From positions 23,000 through 86,999 of the IMG/VR virus record IMGVR_UViG_3300032293_000813: a DNA stretch of 64,000 nt. One strand, 5' to 3'. This stretch comes from a virus. Its lineage: Duplodnaviria > Heunggongvirae > Uroviricota > Caudoviricetes. A program made the position numbers and the translations under genes. Positions within the stretch are counted from its first letter, which is position 1, and the number at the start of each line of letters is the position of its first letter. Positions 374 through 10,850 of the stretch are shown here, piece by piece. The notes under the pieces were generated by a model. The model was not told the origin of the DNA, made no database searches, and saw only the letters and a program-made list of their open reading frames with translations.

Positions 374-382
374 TATAAATAT
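374..382 (-). promoter_or_regulatory. Putative phage late promoter RTATTTATW (portal)
   Basis: ATATTTATA overlapping the TerL stop; the same motif lies upstream of at least nine other genes. Confidence 0.55.
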
Positions 383-1968
383 CAAAGTAACCATCTTATA
401 TCTTCTTTTTCGCTACCAAAATCCATTTCATACGGATTTTGTCTAAAAGTTTGATGATTATACACCCCCATTTCGTTTCCTGTGGATGCAAATGAGTTTA
501 ATCCTTGTTTAGCTAAATCCATTCTTTCTTGTCTTAAACGTAGTGCGGTATCCCTTACCCATAACCCAATCGCCAAACACATTGTTAAGTCGTCATTATA
601 CCCCCTCATAGCTTCCGCTCTGTTTGTGAACCATATAAAGGTAAATAACTCATCGATTGTTCTCATCGATTGGATTACTACCGATTTTTCTCTGAAGTAT
701 TCATCCAATTTAGATATCATAAGAGGACGGGTTTTAGATGATGTTGTAAATCCTGCTACCTGTCTTCTATCTTCTGCTCCGTGTCTGTTAGTATATTGTT
801 TTTCTACATCGATGTATGTATAATCCGATGTTTGATAATATAGATTGTTATATCCCCTATCTATTATCTGTTGTAGTGCCGCCCACCCAATATTTGCATT
901 CTCCACAACTAATAGTGCATTATTATAATCCGTTGCTACCGAAACTAAGAAATTACCAAATTCCTTTGTATCTATCTTACCTCTATATTCCGCAACCTGA
1001 ACATTGTTAACTACATCCATAACGTGGAAAGCTGAGTAATCCGATGCATCACCTCTGGCAACGTCGGCTACAACCATATAAGATTTATTGTAATCAGGAT
1101 ATTCCCATTTCCAATAGTTTCCATCCCACCCACCTTTTTCAACCGGGTCTTTAACAAATGTTTCCTTATACCACATTAGGATTTCAGGAGATATTACCGT
1201 ATCACCGGAAGATATAAAGTCACAATCACACTCTTGTGCTGCCAACTTTTCTCCCAATACTTTTGTTTGTTCATCTCTCCATCTTTGGTCTCTTTCAGGA
1301 TGAACGGTCCAATGTAGATGGATTGGATTGAACTCATTTGTTCCTTCCTCCGAACCTACCCATTGTTTGTGAAACCAATTACCCACACCATTCGGTGTAG
1401 AAAGTGCTATACAGCTACCACCCGTTGATAGGGCCGGAGTTGCAGATGCCCAAATCTCATTAATATCCGGTACGAAAGCCGCCTCATCGACAACCAGTAG
1501 TGATAGGGCTTCCGAACGACCTGCATCAGGTGAAGATGGAATAGCTTTTACTTGTGAACCATTTACTAATCGCAATGAGAGTTTGTTATCTTCCTGTGTT
1601 GCTACCTTTAAACAGCTCGGTAAGTTATCATACATAACCCTTAACTTTGTTACTAAGTTCTTAGCAACCTCCTGCTTAATCGCAATAACAAGTACGTTAT
1701 AATCTTGATTAAATATCATCTTCCACAAAGAATAACCTGCGGTTAGTGTGGAGATACCTGTTTGTCGGGATTTAAGAACTAAGTTGTATCGATGTTCTTT
1801 AAATTGCAATAAAGTTTTTTCCTGATATGGAAATAACTCAAACCTTAACTTACCTTTTGTAGGGTGTTGAATCTTACAATACTTACGCATGAAATATACG
1901 GGGTCTGCCGCACACTTAACATACTCTTGTCTGATTACATCCTTTAAAGATAATTGTTTATCCTGCAT
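382..1968 (-). CDS. terL: Terminase large subunit (T4 gp17-like)
   Basis: Walker A region LKSRQTGIST, Walker B VVDEAAF, STPNG motif and RNase H-like nuclease motif ADVARG..DYS; 528 aa with no insertion. Confidence 0.95.
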   Translation of the reverse strand: MQDKQLSLKDVIRQEYVKCAADPVYFMRKYCKIQHPTKGKLRFELFPYQEKTLLQFKEHRYNLVLKSRQTGISTLTAGYSLWKMIFNQDYNVLVIAIKQEVAKNLVTKLRVMYDNLPSCLKVATQEDNKLSLRLVNGSQVKAIPSSPDAGRSEALSLLVVDEAAFVPDINEIWASATPALSTGGSCIALSTPNGVGNWFHKQWVGSEEGTNEFNPIHLHWTVHPERDQRWRDEQTKVLGEKLAAQECDCDFISSGDTVISPEILMWYKETFVKDPVEKGGWDGNYWKWEYPDYNKSYMVVADVARGDASDYSAFHVMDVVNNVQVAEYRGKIDTKEFGNFLVSVATDYNNALLVVENANIGWAALQQIIDRGYNNLYYQTSDYTYIDVEKQYTNRHGAEDRRQVAGFTTSSKTRPLMISKLDEYFREKSVVIQSMRTIDELFTFIWFTNRAEAMRGYNDDLTMCLAIGLWVRDTALRLRQERMDLAKQGLNSFASTGNEMGVYNHQTFRQNPYEMDFGSEKEDIRWLL

Positions 1969-2636
1969 TAAAATATTCTGTTTATGATAGGATTATTGAG
2001 TTCCCTCAACTTAGTATCATATATAACTATATCTTCTTCTAATTCTAATAATCCTTTATCAATATTAGCAATTTCCAATTCCATATCAGCTTTCATTTCA
2101 TCCATTGGTTTTGGTAAATGCCATATCTCAGTTTGTCCATTTTCTAAGATATACTCATATTGAGGTTTGAGGTCTTTGATACCACTTTGTATTTGTTCTC
2201 TAGCCTCTTTTGCCTTAGCAATTGCTCTACCAAATACTCTATAGTTCTTATACTCTTCAAATACTCCTAGTTTGGTTGCTTCTGCATCTATTTCTACGTT
2301 ACAATCAATACATAGACCCGATTGCTTAATTAAAAACATATCGTTTGGTCCATATTTTTCTTTAGAACAATCTGGATTTTTACAATTATCCTTTTCCCTT
2401 AAAAATTCTCTTGCTGATTGAAATGCGTCGTGGTTCTTACCTGTTTTTAAAACGAACCCCTCTTTCTGTTCATAACGATGAATCTCGTCTTCCCATACCT
2501 CACCAATTTCCCTTTTAGTGTGTGGATTGGGTTTCTCATAACCAAATGCTTTACTAGGGTCTTCCCCTCTAAACACAAAATCCACCAATTCACGGCGGGT
2601 TTTATGCATTAAATCTTTTCTAAATTCTTTAGCCAT
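1968..2636 (-). CDS. Hypothetical protein with a Cys cluster (possible Zn-binding) and coiled-coil C-terminus
   Basis: 222-aa ORF with CKNPDC...CIDC; its stop overlaps the TerL start (TAATG). Confidence 0.6.
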   Translation of the reverse strand: MAKEFRKDLMHKTRRELVDFVFRGEDPSKAFGYEKPNPHTKREIGEVWEDEIHRYEQKEGFVLKTGKNHDAFQSAREFLREKDNCKNPDCSKEKYGPNDMFLIKQSGLCIDCNVEIDAEATKLGVFEEYKNYRVFGRAIAKAKEAREQIQSGIKDLKPQYEYILENGQTEIWHLPKPMDEMKADMELEIANIDKGLLELEEDIVIYDTKLRELNNPIINRIF

Positions 2637-2679: not shown

Positions 2680-3504
2680 TTAAGGTAATTTTACAACCTC
2701 AATCTTAATCTTAGGAGTGTACCCATCTGGTAGTTCAACTCTAACTCCTTCGAATGATTCTACTTTACTTTCAAAGTAGTTTATCTGCAATATTCTATCT
2801 GTAAGATTCATCACCGTTTGAGAAGATGTCCACATTTCGTCGCTTTGTCTTCTCATATTTAATTGTGAATCCGTTTTAAAAAATTCTTTTCTCATTGCCG
2901 CCGCTATCTCAGTCCAATCACTTACCTTATCTACTGATTTTTCAGCAGTTGTCTTTCTCATCTTAGAAGATAAATACTTAATTCCGTTTGTATATCCTGC
3001 ATCTGTAAATACATGTCCATGATTAGTTCTAACTACAGGACTTTCAGTATTTTGTAGTTTAATATCAGGCTTATGTTTTGATGTAGTTTCAATACTAACC
3101 ATATGTTTTGGAGATGATACGAATGTATGACCTTTAAGTGAAAGCTTTGATTTACCCTTATATGTAAGTGCAGCTTTGATAGCATCCTTAAGAGTTGGTT
3201 GTTTAATGATGTTTCTCATTTTATCACCATCTGGTCCTTGTTTACCACCCTTCTTTACAATTTTATGTTCCGCTTCATCGTGTCCAACTAATAGTGCAGA
3301 ATTGATAACTCCTATACCATTTGCATTCATGCCTTCACTCCAATCGGTGATTATATCATGTAAGTATGCAACTTCTACACCATCTATAATGGTATGAACT
3401 ATTTCTAATTTAGGTTTATATGCTCTATCTCTATTCTTTGCTAGGATAAATTTATCATTAACCTCCTTAGATACAATAATACATTCGGTTACCGGTTTGC
3501 TCAT
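2680..3504 (-). CDS. Ntn-hydrolase (peptidase C45 / acyltransferase-like)
   Basis: Near-N-terminal Cys in C-I-I-V...AKNRDR, then SEGMNANGIGVINS and RTNH, typical of C45/choloylglycine-hydrolase-like Ntn folds. Confidence 0.7.
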   Translation of the reverse strand: MSKPVTECIIVSKEVNDKFILAKNRDRAYKPKLEIVHTIIDGVEVAYLHDIITDWSEGMNANGIGVINSALLVGHDEAEHKIVKKGGKQGPDGDKMRNIIKQPTLKDAIKAALTYKGKSKLSLKGHTFVSSPKHMVSIETTSKHKPDIKLQNTESPVVRTNHGHVFTDAGYTNGIKYLSSKMRKTTAEKSVDKVSDWTEIAAAMRKEFFKTDSQLNMRRQSDEMWTSSQTVMNLTDRILQINYFESKVESFEGVRVELPDGYTPKIKIEVVKLP

Positions 3505-3520
3505 TAGGGAATATTATAGT

Positions 3521-3529
3521 AATAAATAT
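3521..3529 (-). promoter_or_regulatory. Putative late promoter (Ntn hydrolase)
   Basis: ATATTTATT, 16 nt upstream of ATG 3504. Confidence 0.55.
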
Positions 3530-3534
3530 TAGAA

Positions 3535-4050
3535 TTAAACAAATAGATTATGTCTATCAAAACTATTTTCCAAAACATTTTTCATAGAACCCGCTTCCCA
3601 TTTCATATCCAATAAATAAGCAACCCTAATATTATCACCTGTATTAATTACATTATGTTCTATCCTCTGTGAATCAAACCAATGTATTTTACCATCTTCG
3701 AATCTAGTACTGTATTCAACTTCATCCAATTTAAACCAATTTATGCAATTTTCATTTGAGATAATAGGAAGTATAAATCTTCTATATTCATGCCCACCAT
3801 CTTTGTGCCAATCTAATTTACCAGAAGGATGTGTAAAAAATAAAAATATATTATCGATTTCTAACCCATCGAATATAGGTAATACTAATTCATTAAATTG
3901 TTTCAACTTAGGTAACTGATAATTACTATCTAAATTATGCATTGTTACCGTTGGGGTGTGCTCTGATATGGAACTCGTATCATACTGCGCCTTTATTTCC
4001 TTTAGTAACAAATCGGAATCGAATGTTATTTTAGATGTATATAATTCCAT
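3535..4050 (-). CDS. Fe(II)/2-oxoglutarate oxygenase (Asp/Asn beta-hydroxylase-like)
   Basis: HxD motif (WHKDG), distal His in EHNVINTG and RV..LLD, consistent with a DSBH oxygenase. Confidence 0.7.
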   Translation of the reverse strand: MELYTSKITFDSDLLLKEIKAQYDTSSISEHTPTVTMHNLDSNYQLPKLKQFNELVLPIFDGLEIDNIFLFFTHPSGKLDWHKDGGHEYRRFILPIISNENCINWFKLDEVEYSTRFEDGKIHWFDSQRIEHNVINTGDNIRVAYLLDMKWEAGSMKNVLENSFDRHNLFV

Positions 4051-7000
4051 TATCTACTAAATGTGAATATTCCTAAAATTTGATTCAATGGTGCAAAAGC
4101 TCCAGTTAATTTATAGGTTGCTCCCTTATAAGAAAATACAATACCTTCATTCGGTACAATCTTATCAAATCCACCTAATGCATTTAATCTAGTCAATTCT
4201 ATTTCTAATTTAGCTAAGTTTTTCGCATCACCGGTTGCTCTAATAGATGATATAGCAGTTTCTAGTCTACCCACCATTTCTTGTTTAGCCGCTTCCGGAT
4301 TTGCAGTTAATACTGATGTCATAAATGAAAGAACATCTGCGCCAACTCCTAAGAATATCTCTTCAAACTTAAGAAGATTATCCTTTGTTATTTTAGCCTG
4401 GTCTTTCTTATCAGTTTGGTCTGCCCACGCTTTTAGCTTTGTATCTTTGATATCAGCTAAACGGAAACTCTTATCTCCGAAAGCCCATCTCTTAACTAAT
4501 CCTATCTTTTGCTGTTCATCTAATGAAGGTGCGTTCTTATCTACAAATTGTCTCCACCAAGCCTGATGATAATCTGCTACACCATTTTTATCAGTTAATC
4601 CAAACTCACTTTGAAGTTTAGTTATCATTGCTAAGTAAATTGATTGCTTAGCTTTTAAATCTTTATTAACAGGTAGTTTTTGAATTGGAGGCCCTTGTAT
4701 AGTAAACTTAGATTGAACATCTGCGTTTATTTTCTTAACCATTGCCGCCAACTTAGCCCCTGCTGCAGGATTTTCTCCTACTGCATCTCCACTTTCGTTG
4801 TATTCCATTGTTCCATGAAATACTAATAATGATGTACCATATGGAACTACGTTTGTATTCTCTGGATAAATGATTTCACAATTCATAAAACATTTACCAT
4901 CTTTGAATATACCTTTCTTATCCGTATCAGATAATCCTCTTACCGCTGATTCTAAATCTTTAATTGCAAACGTAAACGCATCTGATACAGAACCTCTACC
5001 AGCAAACTTACTGATTACATCCTGAACTCCCATTGCATCTTTACCTTTACTCTTTAAATGTGATTTATTTCTAGCAGCTACTAATCTTCCGTTTACCCAA
5101 CTAATAGCCAATGCCTGTCCATCTGTTTTTTCTCTCGCTAATTCCAACTTACCATTTAATGCCTGTTTAACTATATTCTTTAAATCAGCGAATGTAAGAT
5201 TCATCTGTACATCAAATGGATGATTCATATGTCCGTATGCACCACCTTCCATTATTAAGGATTCAGTTGTGAATACTGGAGTAGCCGATTTGAAATCCGC
5301 TTTTCGCATCACCGTCTTAGCAATCAATTTATTAGCCACTTTGATAAATGCTATATTGATTTTAGAACGATTATCCGTTACAACAAACTCTCTATATTTT
5401 TGTAAGAATTCTAAGAATTTCTTTTTATTTTTTGCCAATCTTTTAAAGAATCCAGTTAATTCGGCGGGAGATATTTCCTTACCATTTCTAGGGTCGTTTA
5501 ACCTTTGAAAGAAATGGTCGGTTTCTTTTCCTAACTCTACATCCTCTGGACTCATTTGAGAATCTGCATATTTTTCAACAGCATCCATATCAGCTTTCGC
5601 CATTTCAAATGCTTTATTCTTAATCTTATACCATCCACCTCCTGGTGTTCTGAATATTCTTGCAGGAATTTTAAATGTAGAACCTATTGGTAATTTACTC
5701 TGATATTGCTTATCTATATGAATTACCTTTGTTATGAATTCTTTTGTTTTGTTATCCGCTCCAACTAATTCTACTTCTATTTTTACAGGTGTTCCCCCAA
5801 TCTTAATAGTTCCACCATATAAGCCGGCATTAAGTTCTGTTATAACACTTTCCTTTTCCATTTTTGCCAACTTATCGTAGTACTTAGGGTCTTCGTATAA
5901 ATGGTCAAATGCAATTTCTTTGGCAACATTAACATCTGTCGTATGTTCCATTTCTACCTTCATACCCCTTTTAAGGTCTTTAACAATAGTATCAACACTT
6001 ATATTGTGTTTTTTTGCAATATCATTAAGTGTCATTCCTTTTGCTAATCCTCCTGGTATCTTATCTTCTCTAAATGGTTTTACCGGCCCCTTTATGGTAG
6101 CATGGATTGAAGCCCATTTTTTAGCTAAATCTCTCTGTGCTATTCCTATATTAGAATCCTTTTCAGTTGGTTTAGTTATACCACCCATTACATTTCCATT
6201 AGGAGTATTTGGTGTCTTAGGTTGTCTAAGATAAGGATTGGGAACTTTTAAATCATCAACTCCCAATCCAGATGGATGGGGAATTTCTCTCGGATGTCTA
6301 ATATTATTATCGGCATCATCATCTGTATATTCAACTTTTCCTTCCCAAAATCTTTTAATCTTTTTTACTTTCTTACCCGCATCCACATTTTCCCAATCTT
6401 CTACTTTATGTGGCTGTGTCGCAGGGTCTAAATCCGTTCCTTTTATATTCTGAACCTTATAGTATAATTTTCTAAACTGAGATTCTTTATCTTTAGTTCT
6501 ACCCTTACCCCTCATATTATCCGCTCTAGGTTTGTCGATTTGTTTCATTCCTAATTGCTTTAACCAAGGCTCAGGCTTACCTCTATCTATAATTCTCAGA
6601 TTACCATCCGGTGTATATCCTGAATCCGGTTCTCCATCTGATTCAACTCCACCGGTTCTAGCTATCTCTGATATAACTTCTTCGGATAACTTAGATAATT
6701 TAAGTGTTATTAGTTTGAATATACTCTCATCAAATTTAGGATATGCTTTTAGAAAATCTTTCTTAGATTGCTCATCCCCAGCCTTTAACCAATTTCTAAC
6801 CTCCGTTCCACTAATTGGGTTTGATTGAGCAGGAGATGCATAAACATATCCTTTATCCCTATACCCCACTTCTACCTTACCCTTATATGGAGTAAAATAT
6901 TTACCACTTAATCTCATTTCATCCTTTTCACCAACTACTGTAATAAACCCAGTTGTTTCCTCCGGATATGAAGCTAACACCTCCATCGGTGCGTAAGGAT

Positions 7001-7271
7001 TTCTAACCTCTACGATTTTATTAGATGGTATCCCAAACATCTTCTGCATAATCATCTTTTTCTCCCTAAAATTAAATGGAGATTTTTGATTATCAGTTTT
7101 ATTAGATGTTGCAATATACACACTATCCTTACCAAATTTCTTTATAAGATTTTCATAGGTTGCAAAGTGTCCCTTATGAAATGGTTGAAATCTACCGGAA
7201 TATACCACTATGGTCTTCTCTATCCCTTCCAAAAGAATCCCATCTACTAAAAATTGAGTTAAACTATTCAT
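4050..7271 (-). CDS. Modular polyprotein: HIGH-type cytidylyltransferase-like domain, DUF5661-like module, small conserved phage domain and C-terminal ligase-like (KxDG) nucleotidyltransferase domain
   Basis: SGRFQPFHKGH (HIGH); KIPGGLAKG...VEMEHT...DHLYEDPKYY; HFFQRLND...KTVMRK; EGGAYGHMNHPFD...EKTDG...NEGIVF..YKLTG. Start moved to ATG 7271 (MNSLTQFL), just downstream of the late-promoter motif at 7278-7286. Confidence 0.7.
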   Translation of the reverse strand: MNSLTQFLVDGILLEGIEKTIVVYSGRFQPFHKGHFATYENLIKKFGKDSVYIATSNKTDNQKSPFNFREKKMIMQKMFGIPSNKIVEVRNPYAPMEVLASYPEETTGFITVVGEKDEMRLSGKYFTPYKGKVEVGYRDKGYVYASPAQSNPISGTEVRNWLKAGDEQSKKDFLKAYPKFDESIFKLITLKLSKLSEEVISEIARTGGVESDGEPDSGYTPDGNLRIIDRGKPEPWLKQLGMKQIDKPRADNMRGKGRTKDKESQFRKLYYKVQNIKGTDLDPATQPHKVEDWENVDAGKKVKKIKRFWEGKVEYTDDDADNNIRHPREIPHPSGLGVDDLKVPNPYLRQPKTPNTPNGNVMGGITKPTEKDSNIGIAQRDLAKKWASIHATIKGPVKPFREDKIPGGLAKGMTLNDIAKKHNISVDTIVKDLKRGMKVEMEHTTDVNVAKEIAFDHLYEDPKYYDKLAKMEKESVITELNAGLYGGTIKIGGTPVKIEVELVGADNKTKEFITKVIHIDKQYQSKLPIGSTFKIPARIFRTPGGGWYKIKNKAFEMAKADMDAVEKYADSQMSPEDVELGKETDHFFQRLNDPRNGKEISPAELTGFFKRLAKNKKKFLEFLQKYREFVVTDNRSKINIAFIKVANKLIAKTVMRKADFKSATPVFTTESLIMEGGAYGHMNHPFDVQMNLTFADLKNIVKQALNGKLELAREKTDGQALAISWVNGRLVAARNKSHLKSKGKDAMGVQDVISKFAGRGSVSDAFTFAIKDLESAVRGLSDTDKKGIFKDGKCFMNCEIIYPENTNVVPYGTSLLVFHGTMEYNESGDAVGENPAAGAKLAAMVKKINADVQSKFTIQGPPIQKLPVNKDLKAKQSIYLAMITKLQSEFGLTDKNGVADYHQAWWRQFVDKNAPSLDEQQKIGLVKRWAFGDKSFRLADIKDTKLKAWADQTDKKDQAKITKDNLLKFEEIFLGVGADVLSFMTSVLTANPEAAKQEMVGRLETAISSIRATGDAKNLAKLEIELTRLNALGGFDKIVPNEGIVFSYKGATYKLTGAFAPLNQILGIFTFSR

Positions 7272-7277
7272 ATCTCT

Positions 7278-7286
7278 AATAAATAT
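7278..7286 (-). promoter_or_regulatory. Putative late promoter (polyprotein)
   Basis: ATATTTATT, 6 nt upstream of ATG 7271. Confidence 0.55.
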
Positions 7287-8116
7287 CAAAAAGTATCGTA
7301 TTTCTCTTTTATGTAACCATCCAATAATTCTGCGAATTTGATATGGGAAAAATAACCTGGATGTAAATCCATAGTTAGTAAATCCGTATCCTCTGCTATA
7401 GTAGATTTAGTATCAACTGAAAATTGGTGGAAATCCGTATAAATTTTATTCCCTATTTTCAATTTTAACATATTATTCTGTTTGAATATAGAATCTATAC
7501 CTATATTGAACTCTCCTTCAAAAAATATAAATTTTATATTATTAAGCTTAAGAAATGATAAAAATGTATCCAATTCTCTGGTTATCTTTGTAAACTCTGT
7601 TTTTCTACTATAGAAGTTTTCTAAATAAACTCTAAGATTTTTAGCCCCAATTCTATCAAAATCCATATAAGTTTCTTCCGTTGAGTATTTTCTAGTTGCA
7701 AAAAGATGATTATATGTCTCATCACTATAATCGGTTGAGGTATATAGTATGTTACATATAATATAATCGTTGAGCTTTTTAGAAAACATATCCAATCTAG
7801 CTAATGATGGTAATTCTAATATAAGAAATAACTCATCCTTTTGTTTCCAATTCTTTTTGACAAACTCATACGCCATTCGAATACTTCTACCTGTACCTCC
7901 ACCACTTGTGGAATCATTTACCACATCACAACCAATTATATTAGCTAACCTATGTGAATAGGTAGTCTCTTCTTGAGTATCCCACCATACATTATATCTA
8001 TCTCTATAGTAGTCTCTAACAAAGGTTTTATTATCTGTCAGAGTAGAGGTTAATTCTAATCCTCCTCCTGCACTATGCGAACATCCGTTACAATAAATTA
8101 GCTTTATATTCTTCAC
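7286..8116 (-). CDS. SGNH/GDSL-like hydrolase or acyltransferase
   Basis: Block I-like NGCSHSAG, G-rich GGGTGRS and C-terminal DLHPGYFSH. Confidence 0.55.
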   Translation of the reverse strand: MKNIKLIYCNGCSHSAGGGLELTSTLTDNKTFVRDYYRDRYNVWWDTQEETTYSHRLANIIGCDVVNDSTSGGGTGRSIRMAYEFVKKNWKQKDELFLILELPSLARLDMFSKKLNDYIICNILYTSTDYSDETYNHLFATRKYSTEETYMDFDRIGAKNLRVYLENFYSRKTEFTKITRELDTFLSFLKLNNIKFIFFEGEFNIGIDSIFKQNNMLKLKIGNKIYTDFHQFSVDTKSTIAEDTDLLTMDLHPGYFSHIKFAELLDGYIKEKYDTF

Positions 8117-9437: not shown

Positions 9438-9948
9438 CTAAACAATGTATTCCTACATTATCCATAGCATATTTGTAACCCAACTCTATATCTTGCCACG
9501 ATTTTAAATCGTGAAATTCTATATTCTTACATAGAGATTTAAATTCATCTAAGTAGTTTCCTTTATGTTGATGTCCAGGGTCTAATGGTTTATCAGAACC
9601 CTTTCCCAATCTAATTAAGATGTGAGGTTTAACTCCGGTCATCATTTCGTATTTATCCAAATGATTAACCAACTGATTAGTCGCTGATATAATGAAATCC
9701 CAACGTGGATAAAATGTAACCACACACTTTCCTGCCATAGCTAATCCTAAACTCATACCCATTTGCGTTTCCTCCATTACAGGCAATTCAATCATTAAGT
9801 TTTTATCTACATTATCCAAAGTAGTACTCATAGGATTCCCTCTATAGATAATCTGTTGTCCGATGAAAACGATATTATCTTTTTTGGAAAGTTCTTCCAT
9901 CGATTTACTTAACGCATCTTTATATGGTGTGTATTCTGGTTGACTCAT
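9406..9948 (-). CDS. ThDP-dependent enzyme beta-like subunit (transketolase pyrimidine-binding domain only)
   Basis: FIGQQI...ELPVMEETQMGMSLGLAMAG...PRWDF...NQLVNH. Start set at ATG 9948 (MSQPEY), which overlaps the upstream TGA as ATGA. Confidence 0.8.
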   Translation of the reverse strand: MSQPEYTPYKDALSKSMEELSKKDNIVFIGQQIIYRGNPMSTTLDNVDKNLMIELPVMEETQMGMSLGLAMAGKCVVTFYPRWDFIISATNQLVNHLDKYEMMTGVKPHILIRLGKGSDKPLDPGHQHKGNYLDEFKSLCKNIEFHDLKSWQDIELGYKYAMDNVGIHCLVEYPELYYAS

Positions 9949-10850
9949 TTTATATATTTTACCAATTCTTCGTTTACAAATTTTTTGTTTAAGATTGATG
10001 ATGGGTGTCCGTACCAATCAAAGTTTCCATCTAAGTTTTCACTAAATAGAACCTTCTTCAATCCATCATAGTTATCCACATTCTTTTGATTTCGAACTGC
10101 ATATTCATATAATCCTCCTTTCCTCAGACCTTCCTCTTCATAAAACCAAAATTTATGGAATGGGAGCTTATTCAAATATACGGAAAAATATTGAGAATTC
10201 CTAATAAAGTAATCCATATTTTCATTCTTATATATCTCACCATTATAAACATCAGTTGTTCTAAACTCTGGCTCATAGAATATATCCTTAAGTGTAAAGT
10301 ATGTATAATCTATTCTTTCCTTTTCTAAATAATTTGAAAGGTCTATTATAGTTTCCACTAAAGAATAGGAATGATTTTGGCTTAACATTTGATGATGAGT
10401 TTTCAATATCCCATCTAACCCAATATACTTTGAGTTATTGGTTTCATAATATCCACCTGTTAAATACCAAAACTCATCTTTGTAATTTTTAGGTGTAGGT
10501 AGATAGTTCACTGTATGCGAACCTATTTCCAATTCACCTTTGTAATCCTTTATTAAGAATGAATCTCTATAAGGTTGAGTCCATTGTGCAAATACTTTAT
10601 CAACTATACCACCATTCTCTCTGATATATTCTATCCAATATGTAATACTCCTTTTAATAGTGTTATTGTCGTTCGTAGGGTTGCCCAAATTTAAGACGAT
10701 GTATTCATCTCCTAACATATTTTGCAACCATTCTGGCCACTGCAAACCCTCTACATTGTAAAGGTCTTTTGTCATATGGTTCAATGGTCGTAGGTTAGTA
10801 AATGAACACCCGCCACAAAGAATATATTTCTTATTTTTTGAGATATTCAC
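9945..10850 (-). CDS. SGNH/GDSL-like hydrolase or acyltransferase
   Basis: CGGCSFT block I, WPEWL...NLG...N and C-terminal GHPS. Confidence 0.55.
   Translation of the reverse strand: MNISKNKKYILCGGCSFTNLRPLNHMTKDLYNVEGLQWPEWLQNMLGDEYIVLNLGNPTNDNNTIKRSITYWIEYIRENGGIVDKVFAQWTQPYRDSFLIKDYKGELEIGSHTVNYLPTPKNYKDEFWYLTGGYYETNNSKYIGLDGILKTHHQMLSQNHSYSLVETIIDLSNYLEKERIDYTYFTLKDIFYEPEFRTTDVYNGEIYKNENMDYFIRNSQYFSVYLNKLPFHKFWFYEEEGLRKGGLYEYAVRNQKNVDNYDGLKKVLFSENLDGNFDWYGHPSSILNKKFVNEELVKYIK

What the first reader, a model, noticed from the sequence alone, without database searches (positions are those of the whole stretch)
4050..7271. Modular polyprotein with (I/L)-x-E linkers carrying a HIGH nucleotidyltransferase and a ligase-like KxDG domain
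Seen: modules begin right after Glu in ILLE|G, VISE|I, VITE|L and LIME|G, and the N-terminus MNSLTQFLVDGILLE resembles T4 capsid-targeting leaders. The last module has ligase motif I (EKTDG, 5118-5129), motif IV (NEGIVF) and a motif V Lys (YKLTG). A central HFFQRLND...KTVMRK module might be a BECR-type RNase. A late motif precedes the gene. Known: T4 prohead protease gp21 cleaves after (I/L)-x-E in packaged internal proteins. Inference: this is a packaged polyprotein that is cut during head maturation and injected. It would deliver nucleotide-transfer or RNA-repair enzymes, possibly countering host tRNA/RNA-cleaving or NAD-depleting defences.
Basis: partly seen in the sequence, partly recalled or inferred. 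Interest (0 to 1): 0.75.

Follow-up and report, generated by a model that had tools for sequence, protein, structure and literature searches.

The report
Phage head-cargo enzyme polyprotein
An uncultured T4-like phage encodes one 1073-residue protein that strings several enzymes, including a new kind of RNA-ligase-like enzyme, behind a T4-style "load me into the head" tag, with head-protease-type cut sites at the joints. It is probably packed into the capsid, cut up and injected with the DNA, but nobody has measured this.

Summary
The ORF is real (window 4050-7271, minus strand, 1073 aa).

Modules, in order:
- a 15-residue leader like the T4 capsid-targeting sequence
- an NMNAT-like HIGH nucleotidyltransferase
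- an unknown module plus DUF5661
- a small beta module plus a RelE/RegB-fold putative RNase
- a 398-residue C-terminal domain that folds confidently as an ATP-dependent RNA-ligase-type nucleotidyltransferase, with all motifs invariant. No Pfam, PHROG or NCBIfam model covers it.

The C-terminal domain defines at least 1830 protein clusters, nearly all in modular proteins. The middle modules are shuffled between homologues. Module starts sit just after (L/I/V/F)-x-E far more often than chance, and L/I-x-E|GG precedes the ligase domain in about 79% of homologues.

The gene sits in a conserved block with the terminase, the portal and a gp21-type protease. The capsid protein keeps the T4 cut site.

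Distant leader-bearing HIGH relatives were found in two cyanophage virion proteomes.

Packaging, cleavage and all enzyme activities remain inferred. Earlier notes of this scan describe the same family on other DNA.

The parts
4050..7271 (-). Whole gene, 1073 aa plus stop; predicted 120 kDa, pI 9.3
   Evidence: A 95%-identical homologue exists in an IMG/VR contig (L005).
7227..7271 (-). Leader, residues 1-15, ending in ILLE|G. It resembles the T4 capsid-targeting sequence: L4, F7, L8, D10, then a second site at E15.
   Evidence: T4 IPII/IPIII N-termini were read from NC_000866. The family consensus has the same register. The same leader precedes other domain types in homologues.
6666..7226 (-). 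HIGH (cytidylyltransferase-like, NadM/archaeal-NMNAT-like) nucleotidyltransferase, residues 16-202. GRFQPFHKGH is at 26-35 and ISGTEVR at 153-159. The module ends KLSE-EVISE|I.
   Evidence: Pfam CTP_transf_like 9e-8. NMNAT structures are the only PDB sequence hits. NCBIfam NMNAT models score far below their cut-offs.
6312..6665 (-). Portable module of unknown function, residues 203-320. It starts right after VISE.
   Evidence: Found in 22 homologues at different positions. Starts are preceded by [LIVF]xE.
6060..6311 (-). Pro/Lys-rich stretch, residues 321-404, probably a disordered linker
   Evidence: Judged from sequence composition only. No family hit.
5835..6059 (-). DUF5661 module, residues 405-479, ending in VITE|L
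   Evidence: Pfam PF18905 1.1e-15. Present in 11 of 39 homologues and in unrelated phage proteins.
5607..5834 (-). Small beta-rich module, residues 480-555
   Evidence: 10 homologue instances, all preceded by [LIV]xE plus one residue.
5259..5606 (-). RelE/RegB-fold (BECR-type) putative RNase module, residues 556-671. Invariant residues: H586, R590, D593, R595, N596, D633, N639, K652, T653, R656, E670.
   Evidence: Alignment A4. AF2 pLDDT 77. Best structural match is T4 RegB, Z 7.2, followed by RelE, CdiA-CT, YafQ and ParE. PHROG 14518 and 23027.
5247..5258 (-). LIME|GG junction, residues 672-675: the conserved candidate protease site in front of the ligase-like domain
   Evidence: Predicted disordered in the model.
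4053..5246 (-). RNA-ligase-fold covalent nucleotidyltransferase domain, residues 676-1073. Motifs: N-terminal GGAYGHMNHPF, motif I EKTDG (K715), Ia ARNK, III MNCEII (E799), IIIa LLVFHG, a helical insert of about 170 aa (870-1037), IV EGIVF, V YKLTG (K1054).
   Evidence: Invariant columns. AF2 pLDDT 92.6. The top 12 structural matches are all ATP-dependent RNA ligases, Z 7.2-9.3. Foldseek against PDB, BFVD and AFDB agrees.
1968..2636 (-). Conserved 222-aa ORF between the polyprotein gene and TerL; small terminase by position only
   Evidence: Present in 79 of 80 related loci, directly before TerL. No family hit.
382..1968 (-). Large terminase subunit, part of the conserved block

Best explanation
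This is a head-cargo polyprotein of an uncultured T4-like myovirus.

Shown:
- One 120-kDa basic protein is built from portable cassettes. They are a CTS-like leader, an NMNAT-like HIGH nucleotidyltransferase, an unknown module plus DUF5661, a beta module plus a RelE/RegB-fold module, and a constant C-terminal domain with the fold and all catalytic motifs of ATP-dependent RNA ligases.
- The gene lies in a conserved block: polyprotein, 222-aa ORF, TerL, portal, gp21-type protease.

Inferred:
- The leader docks the protein into the scaffolding core of the prohead.
- The gp21-type protease then cuts after E15, E202, E479 and E675. This would release four basic proteins of about 21, 31, 22 and 44 kDa, which leave the head with the DNA.
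- Once in the cell they act on RNA and nucleotides before any phage gene is expressed. The ligase-like domain seals broken RNA, most likely tRNA cut by host anticodon nucleases. The RegB/RelE-like module cuts RNA. The HIGH domain makes an adenylylated nucleotide, with NAD+ the best guess.
- Homologues that add a polynucleotide-kinase-like P-loop, an HD phosphohydrolase and a CCA-adding enzyme point to the same RNA-repair theme.
For: Fold and motifs of the ligase-like domain:
- AF2 pLDDT 92.6.
- Trl1-LIG, NgrRnl, T4 Rnl1, REL1 and Rnl2 are the top matches, Z 8.0-9.3.
- EKxDG, the motif III Glu, EG and the motif V Lys are invariant.

Leader:
- The T4 IPII/IPIII leader was read from the T4 genome.
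- The family consensus has the same register: L4, aromatic at 7, L8, E10, then I-L-x-E15.
- PMC9026906 reports that CTS residues 4 and 7 direct targeting and residues 8 and 10 direct processing, and that Asp10 blocks cutting but not targeting. This protein has D10 followed by ILLE15.
- The same leader precedes a P-loop kinase, a small beta domain or the ligase domain itself in homologues.
- A homologue carries the MIRL-type leader that is shared by a gene cluster of this same genome.

Protease:
- Peptidase_S77 is present in the genome.
- The capsid protein has LLSE|A aligned with the T4 gp23 site FLTE|A.

Junctions.

Synteny with TerL, portal and gp21: 78 of 80 loci, and also in a second clade.

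Experimental, but on distant relatives:
- The cyanophage 'cytidylyltransferase' starts with the same type of leader in S-CREM2, Syn9 and P-SSM2.
- It is related to this HIGH domain (BLASTP 8e-7; hhalign 84% probability).
- It was detected in purified virions of S-CREM2 and S-SZBM1 (PMC10665884, PMC9146016).

RNA-repair theme: homologue P0049 carries AAA_33 kinase, HD, PolyA_pol (CCA type) and the ligase-like domain.
Against: - There is no direct evidence for packaging, cleavage or any activity.
- Within this protein the number of [IL]xE motifs is at chance level.
- In the interior of homologues the strict motif is only 1.2-fold enriched.
- About 20% of homologues have Met or Cys at P1 of the ligase junction. 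Met and Glu alternate among near-identical relatives whose capsid protein keeps Glu at its own cut site.
- No late promoter was found.
- The beta and RegB-like modules have no L/I-x-E between them.
- The RegB/RelE match is only moderate (Z 7.2) and has no sequence support.
- The NMNAT assignment rests on about 55 residues around the HIGH motif.
- The authors of the S-CREM2 paper themselves warn that abundant soluble proteins may co-purify with virions.
Confidence: 0.55

Rival explanations
1. It is an unprocessed cytoplasmic multi-enzyme protein. The gene would make one large late (or middle) RNA-repair and nucleotide enzyme that works as a fusion inside the infected cell, like fungal Trl1 or bacterial Pnkp. 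The L/I-x-E motifs would then be only the ends of linker helices.
For: - Multi-domain RNA-repair enzymes normally work as fusions (established knowledge: Trl1, Pnkp/Hen1).
- Motif counts in this protein are at chance.
- Interior enrichment in homologues is weak.
- Met and Cys variants occur at the ligase junction.
- No late promoter was found.
Against: - A portable 15-residue leader in T4 CTS register is conserved in front of unrelated first domains.
- The junction residues are conserved although predicted disordered.
- Cassette starts coincide with [LIVMF]xE.
- The gene position next to the head genes is strictly conserved.
- Leader-bearing HIGH relatives were found in virion proteomes.
Confidence: 0.22
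2. It is packaged, but mainly as internal head filler or an ejection aid. The basic fragments would neutralise DNA charge or help DNA exit, like the bulk T4 internal proteins, and the enzyme domains would be secondary or inactive.
For: All four predicted fragments are basic, pI 9.1-9.7. T4 internal proteins contact DNA through lysines (PMC3012670).
Against: Catalytic motifs of the ligase-like, HIGH and RegB-like modules are invariant across hundreds of diverged homologues. That argues for selection on catalysis.
Confidence: 0.1
3. It is part of the neighbouring glycan-synthesis island. The HIGH domain would be a sugar- or glycerol-phosphate cytidylyltransferase that activates precursors for the roughly 26-kb glycosylation gene block directly upstream.
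For: The gene abuts a long run of epimerase and glycosyltransferase genes. Cyanophage relatives have been annotated as TagD-like.
Against: - Synteny is with the terminase and portal, not with the island. Only 2 to 12 of 80 related loci share the upstream genes.
- The closest sequence and structure matches are NMNATs, not TagD.
- This reading does not explain the leader, the RNase-like module or the ligase-like module.
Confidence: 0.03

Closest known systems
T4 internal proteins IPI, IPII, IPIII and Alt (capsid-targeting sequence, gp21 processing, ejection with the DNA)
   Same: - A short N-terminal leader with hydrophobic residues at positions 4 and 7, ending in L/I-x-E followed by a small residue.
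- A gp21-type protease in the genome.
- Basic cargo.
- The gene lies beside the head genes.
   Different: - The cargo here is one chain of four or more shuffled enzyme cassettes with internal sites, not a single small protein.
- There is no sequence homology to the T4 internal proteins.
- The leader is 15 residues long with a second site.
- Nothing has been shown experimentally.
ATP-dependent RNA ligases: T4 Rnl1 and Rnl2, fungal Trl1-LIG, Naegleria NgrRnl, trypanosome REL1
   Same: The nucleotidyltransferase fold and motifs I, Ia, III, IIIa, IV and V in the same order.
   Different: - No match to any Pfam, PHROG or NCBIfam ligase model.
- A helical domain of about 170 aa is inserted between motifs IIIa and IV rather than appended.
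- There is a conserved N-terminal GGxxGHxxHPF segment.
- Motif V has a single conserved Lys.
- Activity is untested.
T4 Pnkp plus Rnl1 tRNA repair (counter to the PrrC anticodon nuclease)
   Same: Homologues combine a polynucleotide-kinase-like P-loop, a phosphohydrolase, a CCA-adding enzyme and the ligase-like domain. That is the same heal-and-seal logic.
   Different: - The T4 enzymes are made after infection and are separate proteins.
- Here the kit would be pre-loaded in the capsid.
- This particular member lacks the kinase and phosphatase modules.
Cyanophage 'cytidylyltransferase' (T4-GC190; Syn9 gp184, P-SSM2 194, S-CREM2 gp154)
   Same: A CTS-type leader plus a HIGH nucleotidyltransferase. 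It was detected in two virion proteomes. It shows weak but specific similarity to this HIGH domain.
   Different: These are single-enzyme proteins of 286-424 aa with no ligase-like domain and no shuffled cassettes. They lie elsewhere in the genome.
Polyvalent proteins of phages and conjugative elements (Iyer, Burroughs, Aravind et al. 2017, PMC5512222)
   Same: Large multi-domain proteins predicted to be packaged and injected, releasing several effectors early in infection.
   Different: - Those proteins are typically anchored by MuF or portal fusions, or carry their own peptidase.
- This family has none of these. It appears to rely on the CTS and the prohead protease.
- That paper does not mention the HIGH-plus-ligase architecture.
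T4 RegB endoribonuclease and RelE/YoeB toxins
   Same: Best structural matches of the 556-671 module. The conserved His/Arg pair has the same spacing as the pair hhalign places opposite it in RegB.
   Different: There is no significant sequence similarity. The model has only moderate confidence. Activity is unknown.

Membership tests
Covalent nucleotidyltransferases (ATP-dependent RNA/DNA ligases, capping enzymes) | Motif I KxDG with the nucleotidyl-accepting lysine | tested here: met
   EKTDG at residues 714-718. E, K, D and G are invariant or nearly so in 39-42 diverse homologues.
Covalent nucleotidyltransferases (ATP-dependent RNA/DNA ligases, capping enzymes) | Motifs III, IIIa, IV and V in the canonical order on the strands of the nucleotide pocket | tested here: met
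   E799, F818/H819, E1042-G1043 and K1054 are conserved and lie on beta strands of the model.
Covalent nucleotidyltransferases (ATP-dependent RNA/DNA ligases, capping enzymes) | Nucleotidyltransferase fold | tested here: met
   The top 12 of 48,161 chains are RNA ligases, Z 7.2-9.3, with 186-212 residues aligned at rmsd 3.9-5.0. The Foldseek hit lists are consistent with this.
Covalent nucleotidyltransferases (ATP-dependent RNA/DNA ligases, capping enzymes) | Formation of a lysyl-AMP adduct and strand joining | not testable with these tools
   Needs a biochemical assay.
Described RNA ligase families Rnl1 to Rnl5 (sequence models) | A significant match to an existing family model | tested here: not met
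   The C-terminal domain has no Pfam, PHROG or NCBIfam hit and no meaningful PDB sequence hit with a family profile.
T4-type CTS-targeted, gp21-processed head cargo | An N-terminal leader of about 10 residues with targeting residues at positions 4 and 7 and a processing site at positions 8-10 | tested here: met
   L4, F7, L8, D10, then ILLE15. The family consensus has E10 in 20 of 37 and E15 in 23 of 37 leaders in this register. The T4 leader was read. Roles of the residues are from PMC9026906.
T4-type CTS-targeted, gp21-processed head cargo | A gp21-type (Peptidase_S77) protease in the same genome, with L/I-x-E specificity | tested here: met
   Peptidase_S77 7.6e-31. It shares 67 identical columns with T4 gp21, and the capsid protein's LLSE|A aligns with the T4 gp23 cut site. 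Specificity is inferred from that site, not measured.
T4-type CTS-targeted, gp21-processed head cargo | Physical presence in virions in cleaved form | not testable with these tools
   The only indirect evidence is that distant leader-bearing HIGH proteins were found in S-CREM2 and S-SZBM1 virion proteomes.
NMN adenylyltransferase (NadM/archaeal type) | (H/T)xGH and ISxTxxR nucleotide-binding motifs | tested here: met
   GRFQPFHKGH at 26-35 and ISGTEVR at 153-159.
NMN adenylyltransferase (NadM/archaeal type) | A score above the curated cut-off of an NMNAT equivalog model | tested here: not met
   Best score is 31 bits against cut-offs of 127-418 bits. Only the generic TIGR00125 and Pfam CTP_transf_like models pass.
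RelE/RegB (BECR-fold) ribonucleases | The fold | tested here: inconclusive
   Model pLDDT is 77. T4 RegB matches at Z 7.2 (101 residues, rmsd 3.1). Nearly all of the top 22 rows are RelE/ParE-superfamily or CdiA-CT toxins. Z below 8 is not decisive.
RelE/RegB (BECR-fold) ribonucleases | Sequence-level relationship or catalytic residues | tested here: inconclusive
   hhalign against T4 RegB gives probability 0.2%. The module has invariant His, Arg, Asp, Asn and Lys residues, but their equivalence to RegB residues is unproven.
Polyvalent proteins (Iyer et al. 2017) | A MuF/portal anchor or an embedded peptidase domain | tested here: not met
   No such domain was found in this protein or in 39 homologues.

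The most novel reading that the evidence does not exclude
T4-like phages of aquatic bacteria carry a widespread, undescribed payload system. Enzyme cassettes are shuffled combinatorially into one polyprotein. A T4-type capsid-targeting leader addresses it to the prohead. The head protease dices it at L/I-x-E joints, and the pieces are injected with the DNA. The constant cassette would be a new RNA ligase family: a helical domain inserted between motifs IIIa and IV, and a conserved N-terminal Gly-Gly exposed either by cleavage or, in the Met variants, by internal initiation. Under this reading a tRNA/RNA repair and RNA-cutting kit is already active before any phage gene is expressed.
Probability: 0.45. 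Interest if true: 0.8.

Novelty: new variant of a known kind. Interest (0 to 1): 0.7.

Why it matters
If this is right, pre-loaded injected enzymes are not a T4 curiosity (Alt, IPI). They would be a large modular system in environmental myoviruses, with at least 1830 clusters at 50% identity for the constant domain alone.

- It would show that RNA repair can be delivered as protein with the genome. That would let a phage undo tRNA cleavage by host defences before its own translation starts.
- It also yields a new, unannotated RNA-ligase-fold family with unusual topology, and a RegB-like module. Both are easy to express and assay.
- It gives a natural set of leaders and cut sites for engineering protein delivery by T4-type capsids.

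Tried and rejected
- Megablast of the gene against 50,697 phage records found nothing. Only Mel-JY01 and two metagenomic huge phages carry the C-terminal domain.
- A family profile of the C-terminal domain against PDB sequences gave only spurious eS6 hits. The ligase relationship is visible by structure only.
- No TATAAATA lies upstream of the gene, and the motif is not enriched in the window: 12 found against 20.7 expected.
- The Atlas search for the 556-672 module returned only unnamed viral clusters.
- hhalign of that module against T4 RegB was not significant.
- Syn9 gp185, next to the cyanophage cytidylyltransferase, was checked as a possible ligase-like partner. It is a low-complexity charged protein, not a ligase.
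- I tested whether the Met/Cys variants at the ligase junction reflect a changed protease specificity. They do not. The clade with Met variants has the same gp21-type protease and synteny, and its capsid proteins keep L-I-x-E|A/S. Met (21 loci) and Glu (58 loci) alternate among close relatives.
- Membership in the glycan island was rejected because the synteny is with the terminase, not the island.
- Enrichment of the strict motif in protein interiors is only 1.2-fold. Not every joint carries a canonical site.
- NCBIfam found nothing for residues 204-404, 556-676 or 665-1073, and only a sub-threshold chance-level hit (sigma-70, E 0.033) for 405-556.
- The Syn9 virion paper (PMID 17564603) is not held in the library.

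Full report
**The object.**
- The finding is a single intact ORF on the minus strand, window 4050-7289 from TTG.
- The true start is the ATG at 7271, giving 1073 aa (P0001). Homologues start at the same M-N-x-L. The TTG overlaps the stop codon of the upstream gene.
- The window is bases 23000-86999 of a 164.5-kb IMG/VR virus record, about 83% complete. The window averages about 32% G+C, and almost all genes lie on one strand.
- Just beyond the window lies a T4-type head module: portal, two small core proteins, a Peptidase_S77 (gp21-type) protease (7.6e-31), the scaffold and the major capsid protein.
- The large terminase is at window 382-1968.

**Checking the observation.**
Coordinates were recomputed and translated.
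- The four Glu-ended motifs are ILLE (12-15), VISE (199-202), VITE (476-479) and LIME (672-675).
- In this protein alone the number of [IL]xE motifs is what chance gives: 8 against 9.0 +/- 2.7. The single sequence therefore proves nothing. The family does (see "Shuffled cassettes").
- The "late motif" is not there. No TATAAATA lies upstream, and only 14 nt separate the ATG from the preceding stop codon.

**The domains.**
- *Residues 16-202.* Pfam finds CTP_transf_like at 23-160 (9e-8).
  - PDB and NCBIfam matches are all NMN adenylyltransferases of the archaeal/NadM type.
  - These matches cover only about 55 residues around the HIGH motif and fall far below the curated cut-offs.
  - This is an NMNAT-like HIGH nucleotidyltransferase. 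It is not a demonstrated NMNAT.
- *Residues 405-479.* Pfam DUF5661 at 417-474 (1.1e-15).
- *Residues 556-671.*
  - These hit two PHROGs of unknown function.
  - An alignment of 22 instances shows invariant His, Arg, Asp, Asn, Lys and Thr residues.
  - The AF2 model (pLDDT 77) matches T4 endoribonuclease RegB best: Z 7.2, 101 residues, rmsd 3.1.
  - Next come RelE, CdiA-CT toxins, YafQ and ParE (Foldseek agrees weakly).
Sequence does not support it (hhalign 0.2%).

**The C-terminal domain (676-1073).**
- A search of 1.84 billion representative proteins found 1830 clusters (E up to 0.001; 584 at 1e-30 or better). The domain is almost always C-terminal, in proteins of 400-1930 aa.
- The invariant columns are exactly the ligase motifs: EKxDG, ARN, a motif III Glu, FH(G), EG..F and a motif V Lys.
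- The AF2 model is confident (pLDDT 92.6, pTM 0.88).
- In an exhaustive structural comparison the top 12 of 48,161 chains are all ATP-dependent RNA ligases: Trl1-LIG Z 9.3, NgrRnl 8.8, T4 Rnl1 8.5, REL1 8.2 and T4 Rnl2 8.0. DNA ligases score lower.
- Foldseek against PDB, BFVD and AFDB gives the same picture. It also shows family members annotated only as "cytidyltransferase-like domain-containing protein".
- The domain is not covered by Pfam, PHROGs or NCBIfam.
- Its topology is unusual. About 170 helical residues (870-1037) lie between motif IIIa and motif IV. A conserved GGxxGHxxHPF opens the domain.

**The leader.**
- From the T4 genome I read the IPII/IPIII N-terminus (M-K-T-Y-Q-E-F-I-A-E, then A) and the IPI leader.
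- In this family, 37 of 142 N-termini have the exact register M-x-x-L-(S/T)-x-(F/Y/W)-L-(V/I)-(E/K/D)-x-(I/F)-L-x-E. The hydrophobic register has a background rate of 2%. Many more N-termini have it with a small offset.
- A review of Black's work (PMC9026906) reports that CTS residues 4 and 7 carry targeting and residues 8 and 10 carry processing. It also reports that Asp at position 10 blocks processing but not targeting. This protein has L4, F7, L8 and D10, followed five residues later by ILLE15.
- The leader is portable. In homologues it precedes the HIGH domain, a P-loop kinase, a small beta domain, or directly the ligase domain in stand-alone forms of 412-435 aa.
- The same genome has a run of genes that all begin with an MI(R/K)L..IL.E leader. 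One homologue of this protein carries exactly that leader type (P0038).
- The small head-core proteins of this phage also begin with leaders ending in hydrophobic-L-x-E.

**The protease and its specificity.**
- The phage's protease shares 67 identical columns with T4 gp21, including the N-terminal LLIE.
- Its capsid protein has LLSE|A aligned with the T4 gp23 maturation site FLTE|A. That T4 gp23 is cut there is established knowledge.
- Capsid proteins of three related phages have L-I-x-E|A/S at the same place.

**Shuffled cassettes and their joints.**
- The four middle modules of P0001 recur in 10-23 of the 150 homologues, at different positions and in different orders.
- Projecting the module boundaries, a [LIVMF]xE lies within a few residues before the module start as follows:
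  - 203-320 module: 6 of 6
  - beta module: 10 of 10
  - RegB-like module: 19 of 23
  - DUF5661: 7 of 17
- The background is 0.095. The instances are related, so the binomial p-values overstate independence. However, the preceding sequences come from different modules.
- Before the ligase domain, P3 is L/I in 129 of 132 and P1 is Glu in 104, Met in 13 and Cys in 12. In the 79 readable loci of this phage's own clade it is always Glu. These residues are predicted disordered.
- Family-wide, the strict motif is 2.2-fold over shuffles in the N-terminal parts, while D, K and Q controls are not enriched. After removing the leader and the last junction, the interior excess is only 1.2-fold, or 1.8-fold with a small P1' residue.

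**Genomic context.**
- In 80 related IMG/VR loci the order is polyprotein, a conserved ORF of about 220 aa, TerL, portal and the gp21-type protease. It holds in 78-79 loci, and the protease appears wherever the contig reaches far enough.
- A second, more distant marine clade has the same order.
- The cultured Mel-JY01 homologue also lies about 2.6 kb before its terminase.
- The glycan-synthesis genes upstream in this window are not part of the conserved block. Only 2 to 12 of 80 loci share them.

**External, experimental support (distant relatives only).**
- The cyanophage core gene annotated "cytidylyltransferase" (S-CREM2 gp154, Syn9 gp184, P-SSM2 194) starts with M-K-x-F-S-x-F-L-(S/T)-E, followed by a HIGH domain.
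- It is weakly but specifically related to this HIGH domain (BLASTP 8e-7; hhalign 84% probability, E 7e-6).
- It was detected by mass spectrometry in purified virions of S-CREM2 (PMC10665884) and S-SZBM1 (PMC9146016).
- The S-CREM2 authors note that cytidyltransferases are frequently detected in cyanophage virions. They also caution that abundant proteins may co-purify.

**What it probably does.**
- In 39 homologues the accompanying domains are CTP_transf_like (33), DUF5661 (11), AAA_33/Zeta-type P-loop kinase (4), PolyA_pol head plus RNA-binding domain (3) and HD (2).
- One 1930-aa homologue carries HIGH, the RegB-like module, DUF5661, kinase, HD, a CCA-type nucleotidyltransferase and the ligase-like domain in one chain.
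- Kinase, phosphohydrolase, CCA-adding enzyme and ligase together give the logic of tRNA heal-and-seal repair, as in T4 Pnkp plus Rnl1.
- AFDB clusters also contain proteins with the ligase-like fold N-terminal and a cytidyltransferase-like domain elsewhere. The pairing of HIGH and ligase-like domains is therefore recurrent.
- My best reading is that four basic fragments (pI 9.1-9.7) are delivered with the DNA and act on RNA and nucleotides at the very start of infection.
- The substrates are guesses.

**What does not fit.**
- Met or Cys at P1 of the ligase junction occurs in about 20% of representative proteins. Met and Glu alternate among close relatives whose protease and capsid site are unchanged.
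- A Met there could serve as an internal start and yield the same Gly-Gly N-terminus. One homologue starts exactly so (P0151). This is speculation.
- There is no canonical site between the beta and RegB-like modules.

**Literature and novelty.**
- The T4 CTS and gp21 system is classical (PMC3012670, PMC9026906).
- Packaged multi-domain "polyvalent" effectors were predicted in 2017 (PMC5512222). Those use MuF/portal anchors or their own peptidases, and that paper does not describe this architecture.
- A survey of viral NAD/ADP-ribose systems links NAD+ to RNA repair and to head packaging, but not to this family (PMC9503650).
- I found no paper on DUF5661 or on this ligase-like family.
- Earlier AI notes of this same scan describe the family on other genomes and reach similar readings. 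I consulted the same-genome notes after my own genome scan had shown the shared leaders, and the notes on other genomes after my own tests. They are not independent evidence.

Noticed in passing
G000:C1:126873-130465 (same genome, outside the window): Six or seven adjacent genes begin with the same MI(R/K)L..IL.E decapeptide. This is a second leader class of the same register as this protein's leader. One homologue of the polyprotein (P0038) carries this leader type.
   Followed up: partly
window 5247-5258, and loci L087-L166: At the residue just before the ligase domain, Glu is replaced by Met in 21 of 79 close relatives of one marine clade, and by Cys in other clusters. The two leucines and the following Gly-Gly stay fixed. 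The Met could be an internal start codon. This is unexplained.
   Followed up: partly
window 2680-4050: Two genes sit between the polyprotein gene and the terminase block only in this phage and its nearest relatives (1-2 of 80 loci). One is a 274-aa ORF with no family hit. The other is a 171-aa Asp/Arg beta-hydroxylase-like (2OG oxygenase-type) ORF.
   Followed up: no
window 1968-2636: A 222-aa ORF with no Pfam, PHROG or NCBIfam hit is conserved directly upstream of TerL in 79 of 80 related loci. By position it is probably the small terminase.
   Followed up: partly
window 7286-8116 and 9945-10850; genome 64596, 65359, 85641, 98489, 111960, 116996, 145607: At least nine scattered ORFs begin with a GDS(F/L)/GCSF-type N-terminal block. 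They look like paralogous SGNH/GDSL-type hydrolases, which is an unusual number for one phage.
   Followed up: no
P0001 residues 10/15, 197/202, 474/479, 670/675: At all four joints an acidic residue lies exactly five residues before the candidate P1 Glu. These may be tandem redundant sites or a coincidence.
   Followed up: no
G000:C1:150537-152174: A 545-aa ORF starts like a GroEL-type chaperonin (phage-encoded Cpn60). This was judged from the N-terminal sequence only.
   Followed up: no
protein P0049 (homologue, 1930 aa): One chain carries the leader, HIGH, the RegB-like module, DUF5661, AAA_33 kinase, HD, a CCA-type nucleotidyltransferase and the ligase-like domain. That is a complete RNA heal, seal and CCA set.
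   Followed up: partly
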